64,000 nt of DNA from a bacterium (GCA_043800535.1 JAZDMV010000008.1:9251-73250), one strand, 5' to 3'. Positions 3,346-33,686 are shown, counted from the first letter of the stretch. Notes: a model not told the origin generated them from the letters alone. Program-made: numbers and translations.

Positions 3346-5361
3346 TTACAAAAGTGTTTGTGGGTCTATATCTATTTCCCAGCCGTGCGGCACAAACATT
3401 AAAAGCTTATTGCGGACACGCAGAAGGTTTTCATGTTCGTCTTGCTTTGCAAGCCAGTAGGGCTTTGCCTTGATGATTATCTGCCAGATGTATCTACTTT
3501 TTTGTCTGGCAATAAACGCGGGAACTGCGTCGCTTATCTCAAACACGGCTTCATTTAGAATCTTACCCCCACACTTTAAATCATGCAACTGCGTAGTCGG
3601 CGGTAAAATTGTTTTTTCATCATTAGATTCAATTGTGGCGGTTTGGTCTAAAAAGTGAGGGGGTTTACTTGTTTTTAGCTGTTGGGTCAATTTGGCAGAC
3701 AGAATTTTTGCCTCGTTAGCGGCTTTTGCCGGGTCGCGGTGGCGGAAAACAAGTTTTATTAACTGTGAGAAGGGCGGATATTTAAGGGCTTGTCTGGTTT
3801 CTATTTCTTGTTTATAAAAAGCGTCCCAGCGGCCGACAGCGGCATATTTTAACGCTGCGGCAGACGGATTATAAGTTTGAATGATAAAGGAACAGCCGGC
3901 TGTTTTTTGACTGACTTGTAATTTATGGTCTGGATTCCCGCTTTCGCGGGAATGACAGAAAAGCAGATTTTTTAATTGCGCTATCGTCTGAAACATTTTT
4001 TCGTCAGACCGAAAATCTGGCAAATGCATTAGGGTGTCAGCGGAAATTATTGCGACAAGCGGCACTTTGGGAATATCCGCATTTAATATCATTTGCGTGC
4101 CGATTAAAATGTCGGCCTTTTTTTGGCGGAATTCTTCAATAATTTTATTCTGCTGGATCGCGTCCGGCGCGGTATCGCTGTCCAGCCGCAAAATTTTGGC
4201 GTCCTTGAATAATTTTTGCGCTTCCTGTTCCACTCGTTGCGTCCCGGTCCCGAATGCCTTAATCCTGGAGCTCTGGCATTTTGGGCAAAGTGATGGTGGC
4301 TGTGATTTTTTTCCGCAGTGGTGGCAGATAAGGATCGGTTTTTGTAATTCACCGGATTTTATCAGGTGATACGTGAGTGGCGCCTCGCAACTGGCACATT
4401 TTTCAACATAGCCGCAGTCGCGGCACAAAACAAAAGTGGCCAATCCTCGGCGGTTGATGAATAGAATTACCTGTTGTTTATTTTTGAGCGTTTGCAGAAT
4501 TTCGTCTTGAAGCTGCCGGCTGAATATGGAAAAATTGCCGTCACGCAGTTCCTGGCGCAGGTCAATAATGGACGGAGCCAGACCAGGTACAGCATACCTT
4601 AGATCGGGGTTCTTCTCCGTCTGAGGGTCAGAAGAAAGATAATGTGATTCAATTGAAGGCACGATACTTTTTAGGATCAGCTTTGCATTAAAAATCTCTG
4701 CCAATTTTTTTGTTATTTCATGCACACGATAGTGGGGGAACATGTCCCATGAGTAATGTACAGGATTGGTTTCGTCTTCAATCGTAATTTTTTTAAGGTT
4801 GCAGAAGGGCGCAAAAACAGCAAGGCGCGTGCCGATAATTATTTGTGCTTGGCCCGAGGCAATCTTTTGCCAGGCCTGGGAAAGGTCTTTTGCTTTGAGG
4901 CCGCTATGGATTAGGACGCGGCGGGCTGGGGAAACCTTTTTTGCAAGTATGTCTATTTGCGACACAGTCGGCACGAGAATTAGTATCTGATTTTTATTTT
5001 CACGGTTTGCTGTTAACTGTTTACTGTTAACTTTTTTTGGCATCATCATTTTCAAAAACGCCCCAGGGGAAACAAAATAATACTCGCCCAGCCACAGGGC
5101 GAGTTCGATCTGCTGTTTTGTGAAAATGGGTGTTTCTGACAGGACTTTTTTTATGGGTCGCAATTCATATTCAGCGTCTTTTATTTCCATTTTGCGGCCC
5201 GCGATTTCGTGATTTGCAACAACTGCTGCTTTTTCCTGGCGGCGGCCAAGCGGCACTAAAACTAGACAGCCCACAGCTAAAACCTGGGCTGAAAAATAGC
5301 TAAGAGTTTGAGATCTCTGGAGGGGGGTTTTCGTTAATGGTACTACCTCGGCGAGATACAT
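3346..5361 (-). CDS. priA: Primosomal protein N' (replication restart helicase PriA)
   Basis: N-terminal 3'BD-like VPLGRR region, DEAH-type helicase core, Cys4 zinc-binding cluster (CRDCG...CASC...CHHCG...CPKC) and C-terminal domain. Carries an in-frame repeat-element insertion at 3929-3958. Confidence 0.9.
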   Translation of the reverse strand: MYLAEVVPLTKTPLQRSQTLSYFSAQVLAVGCLVLVPLGRRQEKAAVVANHEIAGRKMEIKDAEYELRPIKKVLSETPIFTKQQIELALWLGEYYFVSPGAFLKMMMPKKVNSKQLTANRENKNQILILVPTVSQIDILAKKVSPARRVLIHSGLKAKDLSQAWQKIASGQAQIIIGTRLAVFAPFCNLKKITIEDETNPVHYSWDMFPHYRVHEITKKLAEIFNAKLILKSIVPSIESHYLSSDPQTEKNPDLRYAVPGLAPSIIDLRQELRDGNFSIFSRQLQDEILQTLKNKQQVILFINRRGLATFVLCRDCGYVEKCASCEAPLTYHLIKSGELQKPILICHHCGKKSQPPSLCPKCQSSRIKAFGTGTQRVEQEAQKLFKDAKILRLDSDTAPDAIQQNKIIEEFRQKKADILIGTQMILNADIPKVPLVAIISADTLMHLPDFRSDEKMFQTIAQLKNLLFCHSRESGNPDHKLQVSQKTAGCSFIIQTYNPSAAALKYAAVGRWDAFYKQEIETRQALKYPPFSQLIKLVFRHRDPAKAANEAKILSAKLTQQLKTSKPPHFLDQTATIESNDEKTILPPTTQLHDLKCGGKILNEAVFEISDAVPAFIARQKSRYIWQIIIKAKPYWLAKQDEHENLLRVRNKLLMFVPHGWEIDIDPQTLL
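3929..3958. repeat. Copy A of the GGATTCC-hairpin-GGAATGACA element, inserted in frame in priA
   Basis: tctGGATTCCCGCtttcGCGGGAATGACAg; translates on the minus strand as CHSRESGNPD inside PriA. Confidence 0.75.
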
Positions 5362-7081: not shown

Positions 7082-7780
7082 ATGGAATTACTCGGTGTCC
7101 GCATTGATAATGTTACAATGGATGAGGCCCTGCAAAAAATTGAGGGCTTTTTGTCAGATGGCAGACAGCATTATGTTGTGACAATCAATCCGGAATTTCT
7201 TGTGACAGCCCAGAAAGACAAGGAATTCAAAGATATTTTAAATAGAGCAGGATTGGCCATTCCGGATGGCATCGGCGTTGTCTGGGCGTCGAGGTTTTTT
7301 AGCGGCGGATTAAAAGAGAGGGTGGCGGGAATTGATTTAGTTAAAAGTTTAAAGTTAAAAGTGAAAAGTTGCAGAGTCTTTTTGTTGGGTGGGCGAGATG
7401 GCGTGGCAGAGAAGATCGCAGGCGAATGGCCAGAAGTTGTTGCTTTTTCGGAAAATCCAGAAGAAGGAGTTGCGCTTATTAATAAATACGAGCCAAATAT
7501 TTTATTAGTTGCACTTGGCGCGCCCAAGCAGGAAAAATGGATTGTGCAAAATTTGTCAAAAATTCCGAGCGTAAAGGTCGCCATTGGCGTTGGTGGCGCG
7601 TTTGATTTTTTAGCTGGCAAAATCAGCCGTGCGCCAAAAATTTTTCAGTGTCTGGGTTTGGAATGGCTTTGGCGCCTGGCGCAGGAGCCACGAAGGATCG
7701 GCAGGATTTTTAATGCAGTAGTGGTATTTCCGGTTTTGATTTTAATGTGCTATAATAAAAACAGAATACATAAAAATTAA
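7082..7780 (+). CDS. WecB/TagA/CpsF-family glycosyltransferase (N-acetylmannosaminyltransferase-like)
   Basis: 232 aa; INPEF, IPDGIGVVWA and LLGG motifs typical of the family. Confidence 0.8.
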   Translation: MELLGVRIDNVTMDEALQKIEGFLSDGRQHYVVTINPEFLVTAQKDKEFKDILNRAGLAIPDGIGVVWASRFFSGGLKERVAGIDLVKSLKLKVKSCRVFLLGGRDGVAEKIAGEWPEVVAFSENPEEGVALINKYEPNILLVALGAPKQEKWIVQNLSKIPSVKVAIGVGGAFDFLAGKISRAPKIFQCLGLEWLWRLAQEPRRIGRIFNAVVVFPVLILMCYNKNRIHKN

Positions 7781-13025: not shown

Positions 13026-13949
13026 ATGCCAAAAGTTTTTATCATTGTGCTTAACTGGAACGGTTTGAAAGATACGGAAGAGTGCATTGAATCGCTGAAG
13101 AAAATCGACTACCCTGACTATAAAATTGTGGTTGTTGATAACGGCTCAACCGATGGTTCGGACGAAATTATTCCAAAAAAGCATTTTCAGGACGTCGCTT
13201 TCATTGAAACAAAAAGCAACCTTGGCTTTGCCGGCGGCAATAACATCGGAATAAAACATGCGCTTGATAACGGCGCCGATTATATCCTTCTTTTAAATAA
13301 TGATACAACGGTTGAGCCGGATTTTTTGTCAAAATTAGTTAAAGCAGCGGAAGGTGATAAAAAAATTGGGATTGTCGGGCCGATGATATTTTTTTATGAC
13401 GAGCCGGATAGGGTCTGGTTCGGCGGCGGAAAGATCAACTGGTCAAAAATCCGCGGCTCGCACCTTGATTACAATACAGTGAAAAAAAGAGACCATGCCT
13501 TGAGCGATGAAGAGATGGAAAAAGAAAAGAACAAGGTTGTGGATTACATAACTGGCTGTTGCTTGCTTATAAAGAGAGAAGTGGTTGAAAAGATCGGATA
13601 TCTGAATGACGACTACTTTTTATATTATGAGGATGCGGATTGGTGCATGCGTGCTAAAAAAGCCGGCTGGCAGTCGGTCGTGGTGCCCGCCTCATATATC
13701 TATCACAAACAGTCAAAAAGTACGGTTGAATTTTCTTATCCTTATATTTATTATCATTCCCGCAACGGACTTTTATTTGCTTCGCGTTTTGGCTCAAAGC
13801 CGCTGGCTTATTTAATAAGTTTTTGGATTTTTGGAAAACAAATTATTAAGCTCGTCTTTAGTTACCATAAGGCCTGGGCAAAGGCGGCTTTGAGAGGAGT
13901 GCTGGATTTTTGGATGGGGAACAAGGGAAAGCTGGGAGGATACTATTAG
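13026..13949 (+). CDS. Glycosyltransferase family 2
   Basis: VVDNGSTDGS, LLLNNDT (DxD) and YYEDADWCMR motifs. Confidence 0.8.
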   Translation: MPKVFIIVLNWNGLKDTEECIESLKKIDYPDYKIVVVDNGSTDGSDEIIPKKHFQDVAFIETKSNLGFAGGNNIGIKHALDNGADYILLLNNDTTVEPDFLSKLVKAAEGDKKIGIVGPMIFFYDEPDRVWFGGGKINWSKIRGSHLDYNTVKKRDHALSDEEMEKEKNKVVDYITGCCLLIKREVVEKIGYLNDDYFLYYEDADWCMRAKKAGWQSVVVPASYIYHKQSKSTVEFSYPYIYYHSRNGLLFASRFGSKPLAYLISFWIFGKQIIKLVFSYHKAWAKAALRGVLDFWMGNKGKLGGYY

Positions 13950-14070
13950 ATAAATTTAAAGTTAAAAGTGCAAAATTTTTGTATCCCACGGGGGGATGAT
14001 TATATAATTGTGTGTTTTTTGTAGCAAGAAAAAACGTGCACCTAAATTTTTCATTTTTCATTTTTAACTT

Positions 14071-15228
14071 ATGTTGATCGGCATTGATGCACACTGGCTG
14101 GAGGGGAATCGCACCGGCGTTGGCCGGTACCTTTTTAATTTACTCAAAGCTTGGTCCCGTTCCGAATCTGACATACTCTCCCGTGCTCCCGAGCACGGGA
14201 GAGTATGTCAGGTAAAGTTTGTATTGTATTTTAAGGACGAGATACCGAAAGATTTGCCGCAGTCGTCTTTGTTTAAGGTAATGCTTCTAAATGTGAAAAG
14301 CACGGCTAAATTCATCCATTGGGACTTGTGCCGGGCGGCTTGCAAGGATAAGGTGGATGTCCTGTTTTGTCCCGCATATATTGCGCCGCTATTTTATAGC
14401 GGTAAAATCGCGTTAACGCTCCATGACATAATCTATGAAACGCATCCGGAATGGTTTGAATGGAAAAGCTGGGCAGATAAGATTTTGCTCAAATGGGTTT
14501 CAAAGATCTCGGCGCGCAAGGCGGCTTTAATTTTTACCATTTCTGATTTTTCGCGGCAGGAAATTATCGAATATTTTAGGATCAAAGCAGAAAAAATAAA
14601 GGCAATCCCTTTGGCAGGAGACATCGGGGAGGTAGCGGAAGGGGGAAGCGATGAGATACTGAAAAATCAATTCGGCATCAAAGACCGGTTCGGATTTTAT
14701 GTCGGCTCGATTTTTAACCGGCGGCATTTGTCCGAAATAATTGACGCGTTTTCCAGAATTGCGCAGGAAAGATCAGATTTTCAGCTGTTGCTGGCTGGTA
14801 AAGACCATACAAAGCCCGCACAGGACATAAGAGGCAAGGCCGAAAAGGTAAATAAAAAATTGGAGCGGCATGCGATTTTAAGGGTTGATTTTGTGAACGA
14901 TCATGAGTTAAAATTATTGTATAACGCATGTGCGTTTTTTATTTACCTTTCCGATTACGAAGGGTTTGGATTGCCACCCTTGGAAGCGATGGCCTTGGGC
15001 GCGCCAACCATAACCAGCGATGCAACTTCGCTAAAAGAAGTGGCTGGTTCGGCCGCGCTGTTGGTGAAAGAAAATTCAGATACAGAAGAAATTTATCAGG
15101 CGATGAAGAAGATTATAGACGAGGAAGCATTGCGGTCGCGGCTGATAGAAAAAGGCAAGGAGCAAGCGGCGAAATTTTCCTGGAAAAAATGTGCGGAGGA
15201 GACATTATCAGAATTATTAAACGCGTGA
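14071..15228 (+). CDS. Glycosyltransferase family 4 carrying an in-frame palindromic-repeat insertion
   Basis: GT4 N-terminus MLIGIDAHWLEGNRTGVGRY and C-terminal EGFGLPPLEAMALGAP motif. The 42-nt palindrome at 14169-14210 is translated as DILSRAPEHGRVCQ. Confidence 0.8.
   Translation: MLIGIDAHWLEGNRTGVGRYLFNLLKAWSRSESDILSRAPEHGRVCQVKFVLYFKDEIPKDLPQSSLFKVMLLNVKSTAKFIHWDLCRAACKDKVDVLFCPAYIAPLFYSGKIALTLHDIIYETHPEWFEWKSWADKILLKWVSKISARKAALIFTISDFSRQEIIEYFRIKAEKIKAIPLAGDIGEVAEGGSDEILKNQFGIKDRFGFYVGSIFNRRHLSEIIDAFSRIAQERSDFQLLLAGKDHTKPAQDIRGKAEKVNKKLERHAILRVDFVNDHELKLLYNACAFFIYLSDYEGFGLPPLEAMALGAPTITSDATSLKEVAGSAALLVKENSDTEEIYQAMKKIIDEEALRSRLIEKGKEQAAKFSWKKCAEETLSELLNA
14169..14210. repeat. 42-nt perfect palindrome (CATACTCTCCCGTGCTCC family), copy 1, in-frame within the GT4 gene
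   Basis: TGACATACTCTCCCGTGCTC-CC-GAGCACGGGAGAGTATGTCA; 20+2+20 nt, 14 codons. Confidence 0.9.
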
Positions 15229-15331: not shown

Positions 15332-16900
15332 TTGAAAAAATACTTTGTTCCGTTAAATATAATTTTTGCTGTTGAGGTGATAATAGTGATATTGGCTTCA
15401 CTCGGAATTATTCCCCGCGAGGCGGTTTTAGCGCTGACGGGCTTGATGATTTTTTACATGATCTTTTCGCCGGTGGAAGATTCTCTTTATCTTGTTGTTG
15501 CATCAATCCCGCTTTTTGTCGCTTTGCCGATAAGCGGTAATTTTGATTCAATGGCTAATTGGCGGATCTTGATTACCGTCTTGTTTTTATGCCTGTTTTT
15601 TAAGCGTGGGATTTTAAGTGTGCTGTTGAAAGACGAGAAAGGTCGTTGGCAGTTGAAAGAAAAGTATGGCTGCTATTTAGCTGAATACCTGATTTTGCCG
15701 TTTTTGGGCATAGCGGCATTGTCTATTTTTGTGGCTGACTACAAAATTTTAGGGGTGAAGAAATTGTTATTTCTAATTAATATTTTTCTGTTGTTTCTTA
15801 TTATACGAAACTTAGCGGGAAGAAAAGAGGTTTTTTTAAATATTCTGAAAGCGGCCGCCACGGGTGCTTCTGTTGTCGTTTTGGGAGGCGCGGTGCAGTT
15901 TATTGCTATTTTATTTTTGCCTTTGTACAATTTCTGGCAATTTTGGGCAAATAGCGTGATTGGCGTTTTTTATGGGCAAGGCCTTGCCAAACTTTTGTCT
16001 ATCAGTAATACCTGGTTTGCCTATTATGTGAACAGGCCACCGACATTAAGGATTTTTTCTTTGTTTCCCGATTCTCATTCTTCAGCGATGTTTTTAATTC
16101 TGGCGACGCCGGTATTTTTGGCTTTGGCCGTGTTTTTTGAAAAAGAGCGGGGCAAAAAAATATTTTTTTGGGTAATGGTTGGGTTGTCGCTGTTTTTTGT
16201 CATTATGTCCGGCTCGCGGGGCGCCTGGCTTAGTTTTATCCCGGTTTTTATAGTTGCTTTATATATTTTTATCAAAAAGACGGATCGGCAGTTAAACAGA
16301 AAGATCATTGTAACGGCGGCGATTTTTGGGATTCTTTTTTTTGCATCGTCTTTTTATCCATTCGTTTTTTATAAAGTGCAATCGTGGTTGGGCTACGGCA
16401 GTTCCTATGATGTCTCGTTTTTTGAGCGGGCAAAATCAATTTCTGACCTGGACGAAATTTCCAATAAAAGCCGGCTACAGATATGGCGGGCGAGTATAAG
16501 CTCTTTAGCGCAGCATCCGATGCTTGGTGTTGGCCTGGGCAATTATATAACAGTGCTGAATGAAGACGTTTCGGCAGTAAAAAAAGGCGCCTCGGCTCAT
16601 AATTTGTATCTTGATTTTGCGGCGGAAATAGGGATCTTAGGCGTTTTGATTCTTTTGGCGATTTTTGTTGAAATCCTGCGCACTTGCTGGCTGGTTTTTG
16701 GGCAGGCGGAGGAGCCATATTTTAAAATTTTTGGTCTGGCGTTCGGTCTTTACTTTTTGTGGGCGCTGGTTTATAGTTTATTTGATGTGGTGCTTTTAAA
16801 CGACAAAGTGTTTCTGTTTTTCATGGTTGCAACCGGCGCGCTTTATTCCATAAGAGCACTGACGGAAGATAAGCGAAAGAAAGCAGCAATAATTCAGTAG
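15332..16900 (+). CDS. O-antigen ligase/polymerase-like (Wzy_C domain) polytopic membrane protein
   Basis: 522 aa, more than 10 TM, with SGSRGAW motif and a periplasmic loop typical of the O-antigen ligase family. Confidence 0.7.
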   Translation: MKKYFVPLNIIFAVEVIIVILASLGIIPREAVLALTGLMIFYMIFSPVEDSLYLVVASIPLFVALPISGNFDSMANWRILITVLFLCLFFKRGILSVLLKDEKGRWQLKEKYGCYLAEYLILPFLGIAALSIFVADYKILGVKKLLFLINIFLLFLIIRNLAGRKEVFLNILKAAATGASVVVLGGAVQFIAILFLPLYNFWQFWANSVIGVFYGQGLAKLLSISNTWFAYYVNRPPTLRIFSLFPDSHSSAMFLILATPVFLALAVFFEKERGKKIFFWVMVGLSLFFVIMSGSRGAWLSFIPVFIVALYIFIKKTDRQLNRKIIVTAAIFGILFFASSFYPFVFYKVQSWLGYGSSYDVSFFERAKSISDLDEISNKSRLQIWRASISSLAQHPMLGVGLGNYITVLNEDVSAVKKGASAHNLYLDFAAEIGILGVLILLAIFVEILRTCWLVFGQAEEPYFKIFGLAFGLYFLWALVYSLFDVVLLNDKVFLFFMVATGALYSIRALTEDKRKKAAIIQ

Positions 16901-16912
16901 CAAAAAATTTTC

Positions 16913-17965
16913 ATGCTATCGGTTTCTGTCAATTTGGTTACATACAATGGCCGGCGATTTATTGAAAATTGTTTAAAGTCTGTTTTGCGGCAGACATACC
17001 CGAAAGTTGAGATTTTGATAATTGATAACGCGTCTCAAGATAATACAGTGTTGATGGCGCAGGAAATTATCGGCAAAGAAAATCCTAAATTTCCAGTGCG
17101 TATAATTAAAAATGAAAAAAATCTCGGTTTCTCAGCTGGCCATAATTTGGGGATAAAGGAAAGCAGGGGAGAATTGGTTGTCTGTTTGAATCAGGACGTG
17201 GTGCTGGTACCGGATTTTATTGAAAAAGCTGTTGAGTTTTTTGAAAAAAATGGCCAAACTGAAATTGCAGCGCTTCAGCCAAAGCTTTTACGGCTTGATA
17301 AGGAGTTGCAGCCGTCCAGCATTATTGATACGACAGGTTTGGTAATGTTAAAAAACCGGCGGATTATTAGTCGCGGTCAGGGGCAGAAAGACGAAGGGCA
17401 GTATGGTAATATAGAAGAAGTATTTGGCGCGGATGGAGCCGCGCCGGTCTATAAAAGAGACGCGTTGGAAGACGTGAAAATAAATGTCAAATGTCAAATG
17501 TCAAATGTCAAAACCGCGGATGGCGAATACTTTGATGAGGACTTCTTTGCTTATAAAGAAGACGTTGATTTATCGTGGCGTTTACGTCTAGCCGGTTGGA
17601 AAATTTTTTATGTTCCCAAAGTCATAGCCTGGCATGGTCGTAGCGCCGGAGACAGTACAGCCACTAATTATTTTGCCATTATCAGAGAAAGATTAAAAAT
17701 TAGTAAATTTGCCAAATACGTAGCTTTTAAAAACCAAAGATTGATGCAGATAAAAAATGAGCAGCTATTTCTTTTATTAAAACACTTACCGCGATTTTTG
17801 GTTAAAGAAATCAGTTCTTGGACATATGTAATTTTATTTGAGCGATTTACGTGGTCGGCAATTAGAGACCTATTTAGGCAGGCACCGCGCGCTTTTCAAA
17901 AACGTAAAATAATTATGGAGAGCAGAAGAGCCAGCGTAAACGAAATGGGAAAGTGGTTTATTTAA
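16913..17965 (+). CDS. Glycosyltransferase family 2 containing an internal heptanucleotide repeat
   Basis: IIDNASQDNT, LNQDVVL and YKEDVDLSWR motifs. (AAATGTC)x4 at 17482-17509 encodes INVKCQMSNVKT. Confidence 0.8.
   Translation: MLSVSVNLVTYNGRRFIENCLKSVLRQTYPKVEILIIDNASQDNTVLMAQEIIGKENPKFPVRIIKNEKNLGFSAGHNLGIKESRGELVVCLNQDVVLVPDFIEKAVEFFEKNGQTEIAALQPKLLRLDKELQPSSIIDTTGLVMLKNRRIISRGQGQKDEGQYGNIEEVFGADGAAPVYKRDALEDVKINVKCQMSNVKTADGEYFDEDFFAYKEDVDLSWRLRLAGWKIFYVPKVIAWHGRSAGDSTATNYFAIIRERLKISKFAKYVAFKNQRLMQIKNEQLFLLLKHLPRFLVKEISSWTYVILFERFTWSAIRDLFRQAPRAFQKRKIIMESRRASVNEMGKWFI
17482..17509 (+). repeat. Heptanucleotide tandem repeat (AAATGTC)x4 inside the GT2 CDS
   Basis: Four perfect 7-nt units followed by AAA; the unit length is not a multiple of 3. 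Confidence 0.9.
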
Positions 17966-17990: not shown

Positions 17991-19040
17991 ATGGTAATAC
18001 AAAATGATCTTTCGGAATTAAATAAACCGGATGCGGAGCAAAAGCCTTACAGAAAGAGACGGTTTTGGCTGTGGACTTTAATTATTATTGCAGTTCTGGC
18101 AGGATTGTCCGGCGTAATGTTTTATAAGGCAGGATTCACTTTCTCGCAGATGAATGTCAATGCGGGCGGAAGCATCCTGCCAGTTTTGGAAGACGCGCCT
18201 AAAGCTGAGAAAGACGAGGACAGAATAAATATTCTCATGCTTGGTCTGCGCGGACCGGAAGACCCGAATGGTGGGTTGCTGACGGATACTATAATAGTTT
18301 TGAGCGTCAAAAAATCTACCGGTCAGGTGGCGATGATATCAGTTCCGCGCGACCTTTATGTTAAAATGCCGACGGTCAATGGTCAGAATAAGTCGCCAGC
18401 CATTAAAGAGAAAATCAATTTTGCCTATGCATTGGGCGAAGAAACAAAGCAGGGGGCGGGCCTGGCATTCAGTAAGGCGGTAATATCAAACGTGACAGGC
18501 CTATATATTGACCACGTTGCTTCTGTTGATTTTATGGCTTTTAAAGATGTTGTTGATATTCTGGGAGGAATTGATGTTTATCTTGATAAGCCATTCCGCG
18601 AAACTGCTCAGTTTGCCAAAGAAATTCTGCTTGAGCTACCTGAAGGCAAAAATCATCTAGACGGCGACACAGCATTGTATTTTGTGCGCTCACGTTATTC
18701 AACGAGCGATTTTGACAGGGCGCGCCGCCAGCAGCAGGCTCTTGTGGCAATGAAAGACAAAGCGCTTTCGGCCGGGATTTTGCTTAATCCCTTAAAAGTT
18801 TTTGAGTTGTTGAGCGCTATGGGCAAGCATGTACGCACCGATATGGGAGTGGGAGATATAAATAATTTGTTAAGCTTGGCGGGCAATTTTAATTCCAAAA
18901 ATATTACGCATAAGATTTTTGATACAACCGAGGAGGGCTTGCTTTACGCCACAACGAGCGATAGCGGCGCCTACATTCTGCTGCCGGTCGGGGACAATTT
19001 TGAGAAGATGCGAGAGGCGAGCAAGAATATATTTCAGTAA
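17991..19040 (+). CDS. LytR-CpsA-Psr (LCP) family cell-envelope polymer transferase
   Basis: N-terminal TM; LGLRGPED...DTIIVLSV...ISVPRDLYV and ALYFVRSRYS...RARRQQ motifs. Confidence 0.8.
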   Translation: MVIQNDLSELNKPDAEQKPYRKRRFWLWTLIIIAVLAGLSGVMFYKAGFTFSQMNVNAGGSILPVLEDAPKAEKDEDRINILMLGLRGPEDPNGGLLTDTIIVLSVKKSTGQVAMISVPRDLYVKMPTVNGQNKSPAIKEKINFAYALGEETKQGAGLAFSKAVISNVTGLYIDHVASVDFMAFKDVVDILGGIDVYLDKPFRETAQFAKEILLELPEGKNHLDGDTALYFVRSRYSTSDFDRARRQQQALVAMKDKALSAGILLNPLKVFELLSAMGKHVRTDMGVGDINNLLSLAGNFNSKNITHKIFDTTEEGLLYATTSDSGAYILLPVGDNFEKMREASKNIFQ

Positions 19041-19108
19041 ATTTTCAATTATCAATTTACAATTCTCAATAAATGTCCCACAAAGCGGGACAAGTTTGAA
19101 AATTAGTT

Positions 19109-19924
19109 ATGGATTTATCCGTCATCGTCACTAATTACAAAACACCCGAACTGCTTAAGCTGTGCTTAAAGTCGCTCAAGCAGTTTTTGCCAAATATTAA
19201 GCATGAGGTTTTTGTTATGGATTCGCAATCGGACGAAGATACAGAATTCGTGGTGAAAGAAAATTTTCCCGAATTCCATCTTGTCGCTTTTGAAAAAAAT
19301 ATGGGTTTCCGTGCCCTGGTCAACAACGGCCTGTTTCTGGCAAAAGGCAGATATATTCTCGTTCTCAATTCAGATATTATCTTAACCAAGGGCTCGGTTG
19401 AAACAATGATGCAATATCTTGAAGAAAACGAGGGAGCGGGAATGGTCGGGCCGCAGCTTCTGAGCCTTGACGGCAGCATTCAGGATTCCTGCTTAAGATT
19501 TTTTGGGCCGTTAACGATTTTGGCCAGAAGGACGATTTTTGGCAGAACGAGAACCGGAAAAAAACTGCTGGATAATTTTGTGATGCGCGACTATGATCAT
19601 CAAGCCCCGCGTCAGGCGGACTGGATGCTTGGTTCGGCTTTGCTTGTGTCAAGAACCGCAGTTGAACGAGTGGGCCTGATGGATGACAGATTTTTTATGT
19701 ATTTTGAGGACGTTGACTGGTGCCGCCGTTTCTGGCAGGCCGGCTATAAAGTCGTCTATCTGCCAGGCGCTAAAATGTTTCATTATCATCTGCGGGTCAG
19801 CAAAAAAGTGGGTGGAGTTTTTGATTTATTTATTAACAAATACACCTGGATTCATATTGTAAGCGCGGTGAAGTATTACACAAAATACAAGCATAATTGG
19901 GTCCCAAATTTTTCTAATTTATAA
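19109..19924 (+). CDS. Glycosyltransferase family 2
   Basis: LSVIVTNYKT, VLNSDI and YFEDVDWCRR motifs. Confidence 0.8.
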   Translation: MDLSVIVTNYKTPELLKLCLKSLKQFLPNIKHEVFVMDSQSDEDTEFVVKENFPEFHLVAFEKNMGFRALVNNGLFLAKGRYILVLNSDIILTKGSVETMMQYLEENEGAGMVGPQLLSLDGSIQDSCLRFFGPLTILARRTIFGRTRTGKKLLDNFVMRDYDHQAPRQADWMLGSALLVSRTAVERVGLMDDRFFMYFEDVDWCRRFWQAGYKVVYLPGAKMFHYHLRVSKKVGGVFDLFINKYTWIHIVSAVKYYTKYKHNWVPNFSNL

Positions 19925-22033: not shown

Positions 22034-22117
22034 TTGCATCAGGAATCATGAATCAAGAGCCGTGAATTTTAAGATATAATTCTTAATTTACGATTCTTAA
22101 TTCATGATTCAAGTTTT

Positions 22118-31316: not shown

Positions 31317-32423
31317 TTATTTTTTCGCGATATTTAAAACTTCCTGCGCGATTTGTTTATCGGCGTCCGGCCTAGCAAAGGCACGGGCGGCTTCTGCCAT
31401 TTTTTTGAGCAGTTCAGGATTATCAAGAAAGTGGAAAACGCGGTCTTTTAAAAAATTTGGCGTCAGATTTTCCTGGACGAGCGCCAACGTTGCTCCGGTC
31501 TTTGCATAGTCAAACGCATTAAGCTTCTGGTGGTCGTTGGCTGACTGCGGCAGAGGGATAAGAATGCTTGGTTTGCCCGCTGCGGCAATCTCAAAAATGC
31601 TGCCTGCGCCGGCGCGCGAAATGACAATGTCGGCGGCGGCCAGCGCCTGCTTCATTTGCTCTTCTGTCAGAAATGGAAAAAGATGATAGCCGGGCGGATT
31701 TGTAGAGCCGATAAGCATTTTAAGTTCGTCAAAATTTTCCTGGCCGCACTGATGAATTATTTCGCATTTTTGTATTAAAGAAGGCATTGCCAAAAAAATA
31801 ATTTCATTTATGGCTTTTGCGCCCTGGCTGCCGCCCAAAACAAGCACGAGCGGTTTTTGGCCGTCCAGGCCGAAAATAGTTTTTGCCTGTTCTTTTGAGC
31901 CGCCAAGCAATTCGGCGCGGATGGGATTGCCGGTCAGAGCCGTTTTTTTGGTCGGAAAATAAGCGGCCGTGCGCTCAAAAGAAATAGCGACGCGCTTGGA
32001 AAGTTTGGCAGTCAGGCGGACAGACAGGCCGGGAGTCGTGTCTGACTCATGAACCAGAACAGGAATGCGGTATATCCAGGCGGCTATAACGACGGGAACA
32101 GAGCCAAAACCGCCTTTTGAAAAAATGACATTGGGCATATATGAAAAAAGGATCCAGAGCGATTCAAAAAATCCGATGACAACACGAAAAGTATCAAGCA
32201 GGTTGTGGCCTGAAAAATAGCGGCGCAATTTGCCGGCAGAGATCAGATGTTTTTGGATCCCTTCATTTTGTAAAACATTATCGCCGACAGTTTCTGGGCC
32301 GACAAAAAGCATTTCCAGCGCCGAGCCGTCGGAAGACTGATAGGTTTTTTTAATTTCTCTTGCTACAGCGACAATCGGAAAGAGGTGTCCGCCCGTGCCG
32401 CCGCCGGTGAAAACGATTCTCAT
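31317..32423 (-). CDS. murG: UDP-N-acetylglucosamine--N-acetylmuramyl-(pentapeptide) pyrophosphoryl-undecaprenol N-acetylglucosamine transferase
   Basis: MRIVFTGGGTGGHLFP N-terminus; GT28 fold motifs. Confidence 0.9.
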   Translation of the reverse strand: MRIVFTGGGTGGHLFPIVAVAREIKKTYQSSDGSALEMLFVGPETVGDNVLQNEGIQKHLISAGKLRRYFSGHNLLDTFRVVIGFFESLWILFSYMPNVIFSKGGFGSVPVVIAAWIYRIPVLVHESDTTPGLSVRLTAKLSKRVAISFERTAAYFPTKKTALTGNPIRAELLGGSKEQAKTIFGLDGQKPLVLVLGGSQGAKAINEIIFLAMPSLIQKCEIIHQCGQENFDELKMLIGSTNPPGYHLFPFLTEEQMKQALAAADIVISRAGAGSIFEIAAAGKPSILIPLPQSANDHQKLNAFDYAKTGATLALVQENLTPNFLKDRVFHFLDNPELLKKMAEAARAFARPDADKQIAQEVLNIAKK

Positions 32424-32506
32424 TGGAAGATTTAAGAATTTAGATTTTAGATTTAAGAATTTTGTCCGTTGTTCTTAAATCATGAATCTTAAATCTTAAT
32501 TCTAGA

Positions 32507-33610
32507 TTATTTTATGGAGTGCTTTGATATATTCAGCAGTATTCCCACTGCCACTAATGATACCACAAGTGATGTGCCGCCGTAGGAAACAAAAGGCAGA
32601 GGTATGCCGGTCAAAGGAATAAGTCCGCTGATCGCCAGGATATTAATAAATGCCTGGATCACCAGAAGACTGGTCAGGCCGGCGGCCAAAAGGCGCGAAA
32701 ATTCATCAGGCGCGTGACGGGCTATCTTTAAGCCGTGCAAAGCCAAAGTGGCAAACAAGCTGATAAGGAAAATCATGCCAAGAAACCCGAGTTCCTCTCC
32801 GATAACCGCCGCGATAGAATCGCCTGCCGGCTGGGGCAGGTAAAGAAATTTTTGTTTTCCCTGGGCCAGACCCTGGCCGAATATGCCGCCCGAACCCAGG
32901 CCTATAGTTATCTGGTCCATCTGATAAGTTATGCTTTTGTCTGCCAGTTCCGGATGAAAAAGCACCTGAACCCTCTGCATGGCGTGCGGGAAAATTTTTA
33001 CAAGAGCGAACAGGGCGCCAAAGCCAAGCGGTGCCATTATAAACAAATGGCTGATGGGTGTTTGGGCGACAACGTACATGGCCAGAGCCGTTAAAGCGAA
33101 GACGCCCAAAGTTCCGATATCCGGTTCAAGACCGATCAGCACACCGACAGCCGCAAGAATTGCGAGAAAAGGAACAAGCCGTTTATGGCGCAGGGAGCGT
33201 TTGAGGTCACGTGACTTTTCAAGAAAGGCGGCCAGATAAACAACAAAAGCGATCTTAAAAACTTCGCTTGGCTGGAAATTGACTATACGCAGGTCAAGCC
33301 AGCGCTTGGCGCCACCCAGTTCCATGCTAAGGCCCGGCACGAAAACGAGGATAAGCAAAATTATGCCGATGACGAAAAAAGTTGATGCAAAGCGGCGCAG
33401 ATAGTGATAAGGGAGGTGGAAGAAAAAATATGCAAGGATCAGGCCTGGCAGGAGCCCTTTTAATAATTGGTTTTTTGCAAAATAAAACGACTGACCGAAT
33501 TTTTCCTGCGAAATAACACCACCGGCGCTGGTCACCATGAAAAGGCCAAAAATCACCAGAATTCCCGTTACGATTAGAATGACTAAGTTTGGCTTGCCGG
33601 CTTTGGGCAT
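32507..33610 (-). CDS. ftsW: SEDS-family peptidoglycan glycosyltransferase / lipid II flippase (FtsW/RodA)
   Basis: 10-TM SEDS protein, 367 aa, in dcw context between murD and murG. Confidence 0.85.
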   Translation of the reverse strand: MPKAGKPNLVILIVTGILVIFGLFMVTSAGGVISQEKFGQSFYFAKNQLLKGLLPGLILAYFFFHLPYHYLRRFASTFFVIGIILLILVFVPGLSMELGGAKRWLDLRIVNFQPSEVFKIAFVVYLAAFLEKSRDLKRSLRHKRLVPFLAILAAVGVLIGLEPDIGTLGVFALTALAMYVVAQTPISHLFIMAPLGFGALFALVKIFPHAMQRVQVLFHPELADKSITYQMDQITIGLGSGGIFGQGLAQGKQKFLYLPQPAGDSIAAVIGEELGFLGMIFLISLFATLALHGLKIARHAPDEFSRLLAAGLTSLLVIQAFINILAISGLIPLTGIPLPFVSYGGTSLVVSLVAVGILLNISKHSIK

Positions 33611-33686
33611 AATTTGCGTTTTAACTTGTAATTGCTCGCGGCTTGTCCCAGGTTTGCCATAGCTTGTCCCAGGTTTACCATATTAT

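What the first reader, a model, noticed from the sequence alone, without database searches (positions are those of the whole stretch)
17482..17509. Heptanucleotide tract (AAATGTC)x4 inside a GT2 glycosyltransferase: candidate phase-variation switch
Four perfect 7-nt units lie in frame within the catalytic domain. They fall between the DxD-containing region and the ED.DLSWR motif, encoding a low-complexity INVKCQMSNVKT segment. The unit length is not divisible by 3, so gain or loss of one unit by slipped-strand mispairing would frameshift and truncate the enzyme before its acceptor-side motif. The gene sits in a wall-glycan cluster of GT2, GT4, O-antigen-ligase-like and LCP genes. Contingency loci of this kind are known in pathogens but are not, to my knowledge, described for small-genome uncultured lineages.
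Basis: partly seen in the sequence, partly recalled or inferred. Interest (0 to 1): 0.55.

Follow-up and report, generated by a model that had tools for sequence, protein, structure and literature searches.

The report
Seven-base repeat inside a glycosyltransferase loop
A perfect four-copy, seven-base repeat sits in a floppy, insertion-tolerant loop of a cell-wall sugar-transferase gene of an uncultured ultra-small bacterium; relatives carry other seven-base repeats at the same spot, so it is a replication-slippage hot spot that could switch the gene off, but no switching was seen.

Summary
(AAATGTC)x4.4 is perfect at 17482-17512, inside a 350-aa GT2 gene in a GT2-GT4-Wzy-GT2-LCP-GT2 wall-glycan cluster of a Portnoybacteria-like Patescibacterium. 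It is the only long simple repeat in 64 kb and is not chance. One, 4 or 7 units keep the frame; other counts stop the protein at aa 202-230.

New findings:
- The tract fills a disordered loop whose length ranges from 3 to 55 residues among homologues.
- At least six clades of orthologues carry different perfect heptanucleotide arrays (2-5 units) at this same site.
- Relatives differ by exactly three units (2 versus 5), and unit changes are concerted. The loop is therefore an evolutionary slippage hot spot.
- Heptamers dominate tandem repeats throughout these genomes. This matches a published general bacterial bias that has been attributed to polymerase slippage.

No length polymorphism and no frameshifted allele was found. 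I checked six contigs of one array-bearing species, the 90% protein clusters, about 15 array-bearing species and 278 homologues.

Verdict: this is a slippage-born, "mutable"-class repeat in an insertion-tolerant loop. It is a plausible low-frequency off-switch, but an evolved phase-variation function is unproven (about 0.3). It is a new member of a known kind, of moderate interest.

The parts
17482..17512 (+). Perfect heptanucleotide SSR (AAATGTC)x4.4, read in all three phases as NVKCQMSNVK
17480..17524 (+). Variable loop I190-G204 of the GT2, between conserved ALEDVK and EYFDEDFF. Disordered in the model and hypervariable in length among homologues.
   Evidence: pLDDT<50 for residues 195-202
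16913..17965 (+). GT2 (GT-A fold) glycosyltransferase, 350 aa, conserved across Patescibacteria; donor and acceptor unknown
13026..13949 (+). GT2 glycosyltransferase, first gene of the cluster
14071..15228 (+). GT4 glycosyltransferase. Orthologues carry heptamer arrays at aa 30-45.
15332..16900 (+). Wzy_C / O-antigen-ligase-like membrane protein
17991..19040 (+). LytR-CpsA-Psr (LCP) glycopolymer transferase
19109..19924 (+). Second small GT2. Orthologues carry heptamer arrays.

Best explanation
The tract is a young product of replication slippage. An ancestral single AAATGTC in a loop of about 8 residues (KINVKTADGEYF) gained three more units (+21 nt). The site is a disordered surface loop of a conserved envelope-glycan GT2 that tolerates almost any in-frame insertion.

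Heptanucleotides are the unit these genomes, and bacteria generally, slip on most readily. Purifying selection on the enzyme passes only in-frame outcomes, so 1, 4 or 7 units survive.

As a by-product, the four-unit array is a 'mutable'-class hot spot. It will throw off null alleles truncated at aa 209 or 223, and will revert them, faster than ordinary mutation. The ON state is what populations keep, and an evolved, frequently used ON/OFF switch is not required to explain it.

Shown: the repeat, the frame arithmetic, loop disorder and hypervariability, recurrence of heptamer arrays at the site, 3-unit differences between relatives, and the absence of polymorphism or OFF alleles in available assemblies. 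Inferred: the 1-to-4 history, the slippage rate class, and the lack of adaptive switching.
For: 1. Loop tolerance.
- Loop length runs from 3 to 55 residues across 148 unique orthologues.
- Residues 195-202 have pLDDT<50 in an otherwise confident GT-A model (mean pLDDT 81).
- The same loop also holds 9-mer, 16-mer and 24-nt duplications and GC-rich palindromic in-frame insertions.

2. Slippage at the site.
- Perfect heptamer arrays with other units occur in at least 6 clades.
- L173 (AAAATTC)x2 and L175 (AAAATCC)x2 compare with L039 x5.1, a difference of exactly 21 nt with concerted unit change.
- Sister species carry AATTCCC x4.6 versus AAAGTTC x5.

3. General heptamer bias.
- Period 7 gave 36 runs, against 12 or fewer for any period that is not a multiple of 7 (periods 14 and 21 gave 15 and 10) and about 0.3 expected.
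- The bias holds in coding DNA (41) and non-coding DNA (25).
- Arrays also occur in housekeeping genes: degenerate in PriA in the window, perfect in Fpg and TpiA in loci.
- This is the published bias attributed to polymerase slippage (PMC4692102, PMC4679880, citing Mrazek 2007).

4. No switching seen.
- Six contigs of the L096 species at 99.5-100% identity all have five units.
- Cluster members have identical length.
- Searches with N-terminal-only queries, which score truncated proteins equally, found no slippage-type OFF allele.

5. Selection on the enzyme. The gene is under purifying selection: 84% aa identity, against 70% codon identity at conserved residues, between L163 and L165.

6. Rate class. 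Four units falls in the 'mutable' rather than the clearly 'hypermutable' range of the classification in PMC4235727. That table has no heptamer row, so this is by analogy.
Against: - Array density in the loop is 2.46 per kb, against 0.20 per kb in non-coding DNA. About 9% of loci have an array at this one site. That is more than simple tolerance predicts, although the per-kb figure is inflated because arrays create their own length.
- The array is perfect, whereas those in PriA and the TagA-like GT are decayed.
- The 31-nt array of L163 and L165 is identical between species that are 82% identical in DNA. This suggests homogenisation or constraint, though other equally long identical runs exist in the gene.
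- Going from 1 to 4 units by single steps needs viable out-of-frame intermediates.
- Other coding arrays cluster in glycan genes (GT4, small GT2, Wzy, TagA-like), as in classical phasomes. The sampled loci are themselves glycan clusters, however.
- Consensus assemblies cannot see minority alleles.
Confidence: 0.55

Rival explanations
1. This is an evolved contingency locus. The heptanucleotide array is maintained by selection because reversible gain or loss of one unit switches the GT2 OFF and ON. Switching would vary a wall glycan that serves as a phage receptor or host-attachment determinant in an episymbiotic Patescibacterium.
For: - The SSR has a non-triplet unit, is uninterrupted, and sits mid-gene in a surface-glycan glycosyltransferase, so +/-1 unit gives a null.
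- It passes the 3-unit heptamer threshold used for H. influenzae (PMC2651432).
- There is a direct precedent: heptanucleotide phase variation of the Neisseria glycosyltransferase pglE (PMC7157529).
- Perfect heptamer arrays recur at the same site in at least 6 clades, at a density 12 times that of non-coding DNA.
- Concerted evolution of units implies continuing turnover.
- Further arrays occur in the neighbouring GT4, small GT2 and TagA-like genes.
Against: - No length polymorphism and no OFF allele was found in any array-bearing relative. In characterised phasomes OFF alleles are common among genomes (my knowledge).
- There are only 4 units.
- The position is explained by insertion tolerance.
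- The unit length is explained by a general mutational bias.
- Arrays also occur in housekeeping genes.
Confidence: 0.3
2. The array provides in-frame loop-length variation. The relevant variation would be steps of +/-3 units (7 residues) that lengthen or shorten a lid-like loop next to the acceptor side of the active site, tuning activity, specificity or antigenicity without switching the gene off.
For: The observed differences between relatives are in-frame 21-nt steps (2 versus 5 units). Loop length varies widely while the flanking motifs are invariant. The loop lies between the nucleotide-sugar-binding half and the YKEDVD motif.
Against: In-frame states are the only ones that selection lets through, so seeing them is not evidence of function. 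The loop is predicted disordered and its sequence is unconstrained; even palindromic elements are tolerated. Orthologues with a 3-residue loop are the majority.
Confidence: 0.1
3. The repeat is a chance occurrence or an assembly artefact.
For: The window comes from a single MAG contig with no independent copy.
Against: The expectation is about 3e-10 (my calculation) and no such run appears in simulations. A 31-nt array is spanned by single short reads. Equivalent arrays at the same site are reproduced in independent assemblies of other species.
Confidence: 0.02

Closest known systems
Neisseria meningitidis/gonorrhoeae pglE (protein-glycosylation galactosyltransferase) phase variation by a coding heptanucleotide repeat (PMC7157529)
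   Same: A heptanucleotide SSR lies inside the ORF of a surface-glycan glycosyltransferase, and unit gain or loss shifts the frame and abolishes the enzyme. It works like this if it switches at all.
   Different: pglE switching is demonstrated in isolates and carriers, with both ON and OFF alleles. Here there are only 4 units, no polymorphism and no OFF allele in any relative. The organism is an environmental Patescibacterium, and the proteins are not shown to be related beyond being glycosyltransferases.
Haemophilus influenzae heptanucleotide SSRs: (AACAACC)1-13 at a TonB-dependent receptor, (AATTTTG)14 in hmw1A, (TGAAAGA)n in hmw promoters (PMC2651432)
   Same: These are short-copy heptamer tracts (1-7 units) that differ between strains and can truncate ORFs. 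The 3-unit threshold for calling an SSR is met here.
   Different: In H. influenzae, inter-strain length differences and frameshifted alleles were actually observed. The genes are adhesins and receptors, not a GT2 loop.
General over-representation of heptanucleotide long SSRs in prokaryotic genomes (Mrazek et al. 2007, as summarised in PMC4692102 and PMC4679880); cyanobacterial, Xanthomonas and Beggiatoaceae heptamer repeats
   Same: Period 7 is the dominant tandem-repeat period and occurs with many different unit sequences. It has been attributed to the DNA length contacted by the polymerase, which favours slippage.
   Different: Those repeats are mostly intergenic, and the cited generalisation is that coding repeats are mostly multiples of three. 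In the loci sampled here period 7 also dominates inside coding sequence (41 runs, against 6 for period 6 and 6 for period 9).
'Mutable' versus 'hypermutable' SSR classes (PMC4235727)
   Same: The tract fits the description of an intermediate-length SSR that arises from genome composition and slippage and only occasionally yields adaptive, reversible mutations.
   Different: No rate has been measured for any heptamer in this lineage. For pentamers, 3 or more units is already listed as hypermutable, so the class assignment is uncertain.

Membership tests
SSR-mediated phase-variable (contingency) locus | Uninterrupted tandem repeat with a non-triplet unit inside an ORF (or in a promoter), so that unit changes alter expression | tested here: met
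   (AAATGTC)x4.4 is perfect. 0, 2, 3, 5, 6 and 8 units give premature stops; 1, 4 and 7 units are in frame.
SSR-mediated phase-variable (contingency) locus | Repeat number high enough for hypermutability | tested here: inconclusive
   The tract passes the 3-unit heptamer threshold of PMC2651432. By analogy with PMC4235727 it falls in or near the 'mutable' class. No rate data exist for this lineage.
SSR-mediated phase-variable (contingency) locus | Repeat-number polymorphism within a population or among closely related strains | not testable with these tools
   For this organism only one contig exists and no reads are available. For related arrays the test was run and not met. Six contigs of the L096 species all have 5 units. 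Cluster members have equal length. P0042 (3 contigs) and P0062 (2 contigs) are each invariant.
SSR-mediated phase-variable (contingency) locus | Both ON and OFF (out-of-frame) alleles found in nature | tested here: not met
   There is no slippage-type frameshift among about 160 loci, 278 homologues with the loop motif, or about 15 array-bearing species. This includes searches with N-terminal-only queries that would score truncated products equally. The one truncated gene (P0215) is a rearrangement.
SSR-mediated phase-variable (contingency) locus | The gene encodes a surface or envelope determinant | tested here: met
   The GT2 lies in a conserved GT2-GT4-Wzy_C-GT2-LCP-GT2 cluster.
SSR-mediated phase-variable (contingency) locus | Reversible, heritable phenotypic switching at high frequency | not testable with these tools
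   This needs culture, reporter assays or deep read data.
GT2 (GT-A fold) glycosyltransferase | Match to GT2 family models with conserved Asp motifs and a GT-A fold | tested here: met
   PF00535 3e-28 and PF13641 1e-18. D38/N39, N93-Q94-D95 and E216-D217 are invariant. The AF2 model has pTM 0.81 with Foldseek best hits to GT-A enzymes (ppGalNAc-T, SpsA; E about 1e-13). No NCBIfam equivalog reaches its cut-off, so specificity is unknown.

The most novel reading that the evidence does not exclude
The variable loop of this phylum-wide envelope GT2, together with loops of the neighbouring GT4 and small GT2, is an ancient, selectively maintained heptanucleotide contingency system. Under this reading Patescibacteria switch wall-glycan biosynthesis on and off by slippage, giving these episymbionts a phasome comparable to that of host-adapted pathogens.
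Probability: 0.2. Interest if true: 0.75.

Novelty: new member of a known kind. Interest (0 to 1): 0.4.

Why it matters
Patescibacteria (CPR) are ultra-small, mostly uncultured episymbionts whose surface glycans are presumed to mediate host attachment and phage recognition. I found no paper in the searchable library that describes SSR-mediated phase variation in them.

If the arrays do switch, this would extend contingency-locus biology beyond pathogens. It would also give a read-level assay for population heterogeneity in CPR envelopes.

Even under the conservative reading, the comparative result is useful. One defined loop of a conserved enzyme has repeatedly been rebuilt by heptanucleotide slippage across a phylum. 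That makes it a clean natural system for studying how non-triplet slippage, frame selection and loop tolerance interact, and it supplies about 15 loci where public reads can test for switching.

Tried and rejected
- Strain-level variants of the window's own gene: none exist. The exact product is absent from the contig index, it forms a one-member cluster, the next relative is 76% identical, and the genome is not among the GTDB representatives returned.
- OFF alleles:
  - I checked loci that failed my loop regex; all are intact with variant motifs.
  - I ran two N-terminal-only protein searches.
  - The single promising truncated protein (P0215, 246 aa) proved to be a gene cut at the loop and joined to unrelated sequence, not a unit slip.
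- 90% cluster members of 13 array-bearing or related proteins: no length variants.
- Specific function: NCBIfam and PDB sequence searches give only generic N-terminal GT2 matches. Foldseek gives generic GT-A hits.
- I considered that the recurring units (AAAATTC, AAAGTTC, AATTCCC and others) mark a mobile element or a binding motif. I rejected this. The units differ between loci, and their shared shape (A-rich, ending in TC or CC) is what AT-rich sequence needs in order to avoid stop codons in all three phases.
- I considered programmed ribosomal frameshifting and rejected it. No unit fits an X XXY YYZ slippery heptamer, and the downstream frame is the zero frame.
- Decayed heptamer periodicity in long array-less loops is only weak: the lag-7 match fraction is 0.30 against 0.27-0.29 for neighbouring lags.
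- My first period count used thresholds that favoured period 7. I redid it with a uniform matched-base criterion.

Full report
**The observation**

Window 17482-17512 reads (AAATGTC)x4.4 with no mismatch. It lies in the + strand ORF 16913-17965 (350 aa).

Pfam identifies the protein as a family-2 glycosyltransferase (PF00535, 3e-28). Its neighbours are:
- GT4 (14071-15228)
- a Wzy_C/O-antigen-ligase-like protein (15332-16900)
- an LCP protein (17991-19040)
- a second GT2 (19109-19924)
- a further GT2 at 13026-13949 and a WecG/TagA-type transferase at 7082-7780

Replacing the tract in silico gives full-length proteins for 1, 4 and 7 units. It gives stops at residues 202-230 for 0, 2, 3, 5, 6 and 8 units, upstream of the invariant YKEDVD...WR motif.

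The tract is the only long simple repeat in the window; the next longest perfect SSR is 12 nt. A run of 24 lag-7 matches is expected about 3e-10 times in 64 kb. Markov simulations of 2.8 Mb produced no period-7 run with 12 or more matches.

**Where the tract sits**

I aligned 35 homologues (60-76% identical; the closest named ones are Candidatus Portnoybacteria). The repeat-encoded residues I190-G204 fall between two conserved anchors, ALEDVK and EYFDEDFF. In that interval the family varies from 3 to more than 50 residues with no sequence conservation.

An AlphaFold2 model built on that alignment is confident overall (mean pLDDT 81, pTM 0.81, GT-A fold). It drops below pLDDT 50 at residues 195-202. 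Foldseek finds only generic GT-A enzymes. No NCBIfam equivalog or solved close relative gives the specificity.

So the tract is inside the catalytic domain in the linear sense. Structurally it is in a disordered, insertion-tolerant surface loop.

**The same loop in relatives**

I fetched orthologous loci from species-representative genomes, JGI metagenomes and individual contigs. The gene order GT4-Wzy-GT2-LCP-GT2-CtpB is conserved.

In the loop, perfect tandem repeats of period 7 and essentially no other period recur with different units:

| Locus | Array(s) |
|---|---|
| L096 | (AAAGTTC)x5.0 |
| L163, L165 | (AATTCCC)x4.6 |
| L039 | (AAAATTC)x5.1 |
| L162 | (AAAATTC)x4.7 |
| L053 | (AAAATTC)x3.1 |
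| L156 | (AATTCAC)x4.7 |
| L158 | two arrays of 4.1 units |
| L029, L045, L049, L145, L146, L161 | further arrays |

On a neighbour-joining tree of 148 unique proteins with the loop removed, the arrays fall in at least six clades. The window is the only array-bearer in its own clade.

Arrays usually start at the conserved Lys codon and may fill the whole loop. Three comparisons show the dynamics:
- L173 has (AAAATTC)x2 and L175 has (AAAATCC)x2, whereas L039 has 5.1 units. The length difference is exactly 21 nt, and in L175 both units carry the same substitution.
- Sister species carry AATTCCC and AAAGTTC arrays respectively.
- L163 and L165, only 82% identical in DNA, share an identical 31-nt array. 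Comparably long identical runs occur elsewhere in the gene.

The loop is therefore a long-standing slippage hot spot with concerted evolution of units. The states that survive are in frame.

**Heptamers are a general feature here**

Across the window and the first 82 loci (928 kb), perfect tandem runs with 12 or more matched bases number:

| Period | Runs |
|---|---|
| 7 | 36 |
| 14 | 15 |
| 21 | 10 |
| 8 | 12 |
| any other period | 7 or fewer |

About 0.3 per period is expected.

In 153 non-redundant loci, period 7 dominates both in coding DNA (41 runs, against 6 each for periods 6 and 9) and in non-coding DNA (25). Coding arrays outside the loop lie in other variable segments of the same GT2, in the GT4 (aa 30-45), the small GT2 and Wzy-like genes. 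They also occur in Fpg and TpiA.

In the window itself there are degenerate heptamer arrays in the TagA-like transferase (7339-7370) and in PriA (5005-5036). Several intergenic spacers are heptamer-periodic.

This matches a published generalisation. Heptanucleotide repeats are the most abundant class of long SSRs in many bacterial genomes, possibly because 7 nt is the length that interacts with the polymerase. Coding repeats are usually multiples of three (Mrazek et al. 2007, as summarised in PMC4692102 and PMC4679880). A unit length of 7 is therefore best read as a mutational bias, not as evidence of selection for frameshifting.

The shared A-rich, TC/CC-ending shape of the coding units follows from the need to avoid stop codons in all three phases (my inference).

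**Is the loop merely tolerant?**

The same loop also holds 9-, 16- and 24-nt duplications and GC-rich palindromic in-frame insertions. That argues for tolerance.

However, perfect heptamer arrays are denser in the loop than anywhere else:

| Region | Arrays per kb |
|---|---|
| Loop | 2.46 |
| Non-coding DNA | 0.20 |
| Rest of the GT2 | 0.064 |
| Other coding sequence | 0.016 |

The per-kb figure is inflated because arrays create their own length. Per site, about 9% of loci carry an array here, against my rough estimate of 2-3% per intergenic spacer. This excess is the main quantitative argument that something more than tolerance operates.

**Direct tests for switching**

For the window's organism nothing can be tested. 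Its protein is a singleton from one NCBI MAG contig.

For related arrays the tests are negative:
- Six independently assembled contigs of the L096 species (99.5-100% identical, different samples) all have five units.
- All members of the 90% clusters of array-bearing proteins have equal length.
- P0042 (3 contigs) and P0062 (2 contigs) are each invariant.
- No slippage-type out-of-frame allele was found among about 160 loci, 278 homologues with the loop motif or about 15 array-bearing species. This holds even though two protein searches used N-terminal-only queries, which score truncated products as well as full-length ones.
- The one truncated candidate, P0215, is a rearrangement at the loop.

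Consensus assemblies cannot reveal minority alleles. These results therefore argue against frequent domination by OFF states, not against rare switching.

**Interpretation**

The best-supported account (0.55) has these steps:
- An 8-residue ancestral loop contained one AAATGTC. With one unit the protein reads KINVKTADGEYF, close in length to the 7-residue loops of L001 and L007.
- The loop gained three units by slippage.
- The insertion persists because the loop tolerates it.
- Purifying selection on a conserved enzyme keeps the in-frame state.

The array is then a 'mutable'-class SSR in the sense of PMC4235727: an elevated source of reversible null alleles, but not demonstrably an evolved switch.

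The main rival (0.30) is a true contingency locus, working like the heptanucleotide-controlled Neisseria glycosyltransferase pglE (PMC7157529) or the short heptamer tracts of H. influenzae (PMC2651432, whose 3-unit threshold this tract passes). Its support comes from:
- the glycan context
- the purity of the array
- the excess density at the site
- the concerted turnover of units
- the need for viable out-of-frame intermediates if expansion was stepwise

Minor rivals are functional in-frame loop-length variation (0.10) and artefact (0.02).

**Novelty and score**

Heptanucleotide coding SSRs in glycosyltransferases and the bacterial heptamer bias are both known, so this is a new member of a known kind. 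What appears undescribed is two things. First, heptamer arrays recur at one defined loop of a phylum-wide Patescibacteria envelope enzyme. Second, I found no paper in the searchable library on SSR-based phase variation in this phylum.

Interest is 0.4. If read-level data showed switching, the finding would rise to about 0.75.

Noticed in passing
window 14046-14065: A perfect (ATTTTTC)x2.9 lies 6 nt upstream of the ATG of the GT4 gene (14071). This is a promoter or 5'-UTR heptamer tract at the head of the same glycan cluster. The related unit AATTTTC recurs intergenically in L031, L032 and L081.
   Followed up: partly
window 32428-32462 and 32473-32503: The spacer between the GT28 (MurG-like, 31317-32423) and FtsW/RodA (32507-33610) genes is almost entirely two imperfect heptamer arrays, (AGATTTT)x5 and (TCTTAAA)x4.4. 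They are inverted copies of each other, forming a long hairpin with 7-nt periodic arms.
   Followed up: partly
window 7339-7370 and 5005-5036: Degenerate heptamer arrays lie inside coding sequence. (AGTTAAA)x4.6, 84% matches, is in a WecG/TagA-family glycosyltransferase (7082-7780). A period 7/14 array is in PriA (3346-5361, minus strand). Both look like decayed slippage insertions.
   Followed up: partly
window 19040-19070; 33641-33682; 22079-22110: Further intergenic repeats have periods that are multiples of seven: an imperfect (AATTTTC)x4.4 between the LCP gene and the second GT2, a 21-nt x2 repeat, and a 14-nt x2.3 repeat.
   Followed up: no
L034, L044, L112, L032, L031, L078, L100, L104 (GT2 loop region): In these orthologues the same loop holds GC-rich palindromic (hairpin-forming) sequences inserted in frame. 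For example, L034 has GAGGTTGAGCCTC...GAGGCTCAACCTC. This recalls the in-frame palindromic elements of Rickettsia (my recollection).
   Followed up: partly
L167 935-1077 versus L096 and L168: A 143-nt insertion with two GC-rich terminal hairpins (CCCCGCGC...GCGCGGGG and CCCCGCCG...CGGCGGGG) is present in some contigs of one species and absent from others, between the GT4 and Wzy genes. It looks like a small mobile (MITE-like) element polymorphism and changes the called Wzy start (504 versus 557 aa).
   Followed up: partly
L036 4633-4660, L042 1329-1408, L045 63-83, L053 5264-5289, L044 3969-4002: Period-8 perfect arrays occur only in non-coding DNA (14 non-coding, 0 coding). Several share an ATGTTA/TAACAT core within one clade, which suggests a specific tandem binding-site motif rather than generic slippage.
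   Followed up: no
L172 1381-1413 (protein P0215): This GT2 orthologue is truncated exactly at the end of the variable loop and followed by unrelated sequence. It is a rearrangement or a chimeric assembly at the loop's palindromic insertion.
   Followed up: partly
L084 383-412, L095 217-249, L123 204-225: The neighbouring GT4 has its own heptamer-array hot spot at residues 30-45: (AAATCCC)x4.3, (AAGTTAC)x4.7 and (TCCAATT)x3.1. The window's GT4 has an 18-residue non-repetitive insertion at the same place.
   Followed up: partly
L053 GT2, N-terminal variable region: A tandem peptide duplication, KGSTALQDYGAN x2, lies in a second hypervariable segment (about residues 60-110) of the GT2. Several orthologues (L031, L034, L050, L123, L136) have heptamer arrays in that segment.
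   Followed up: no
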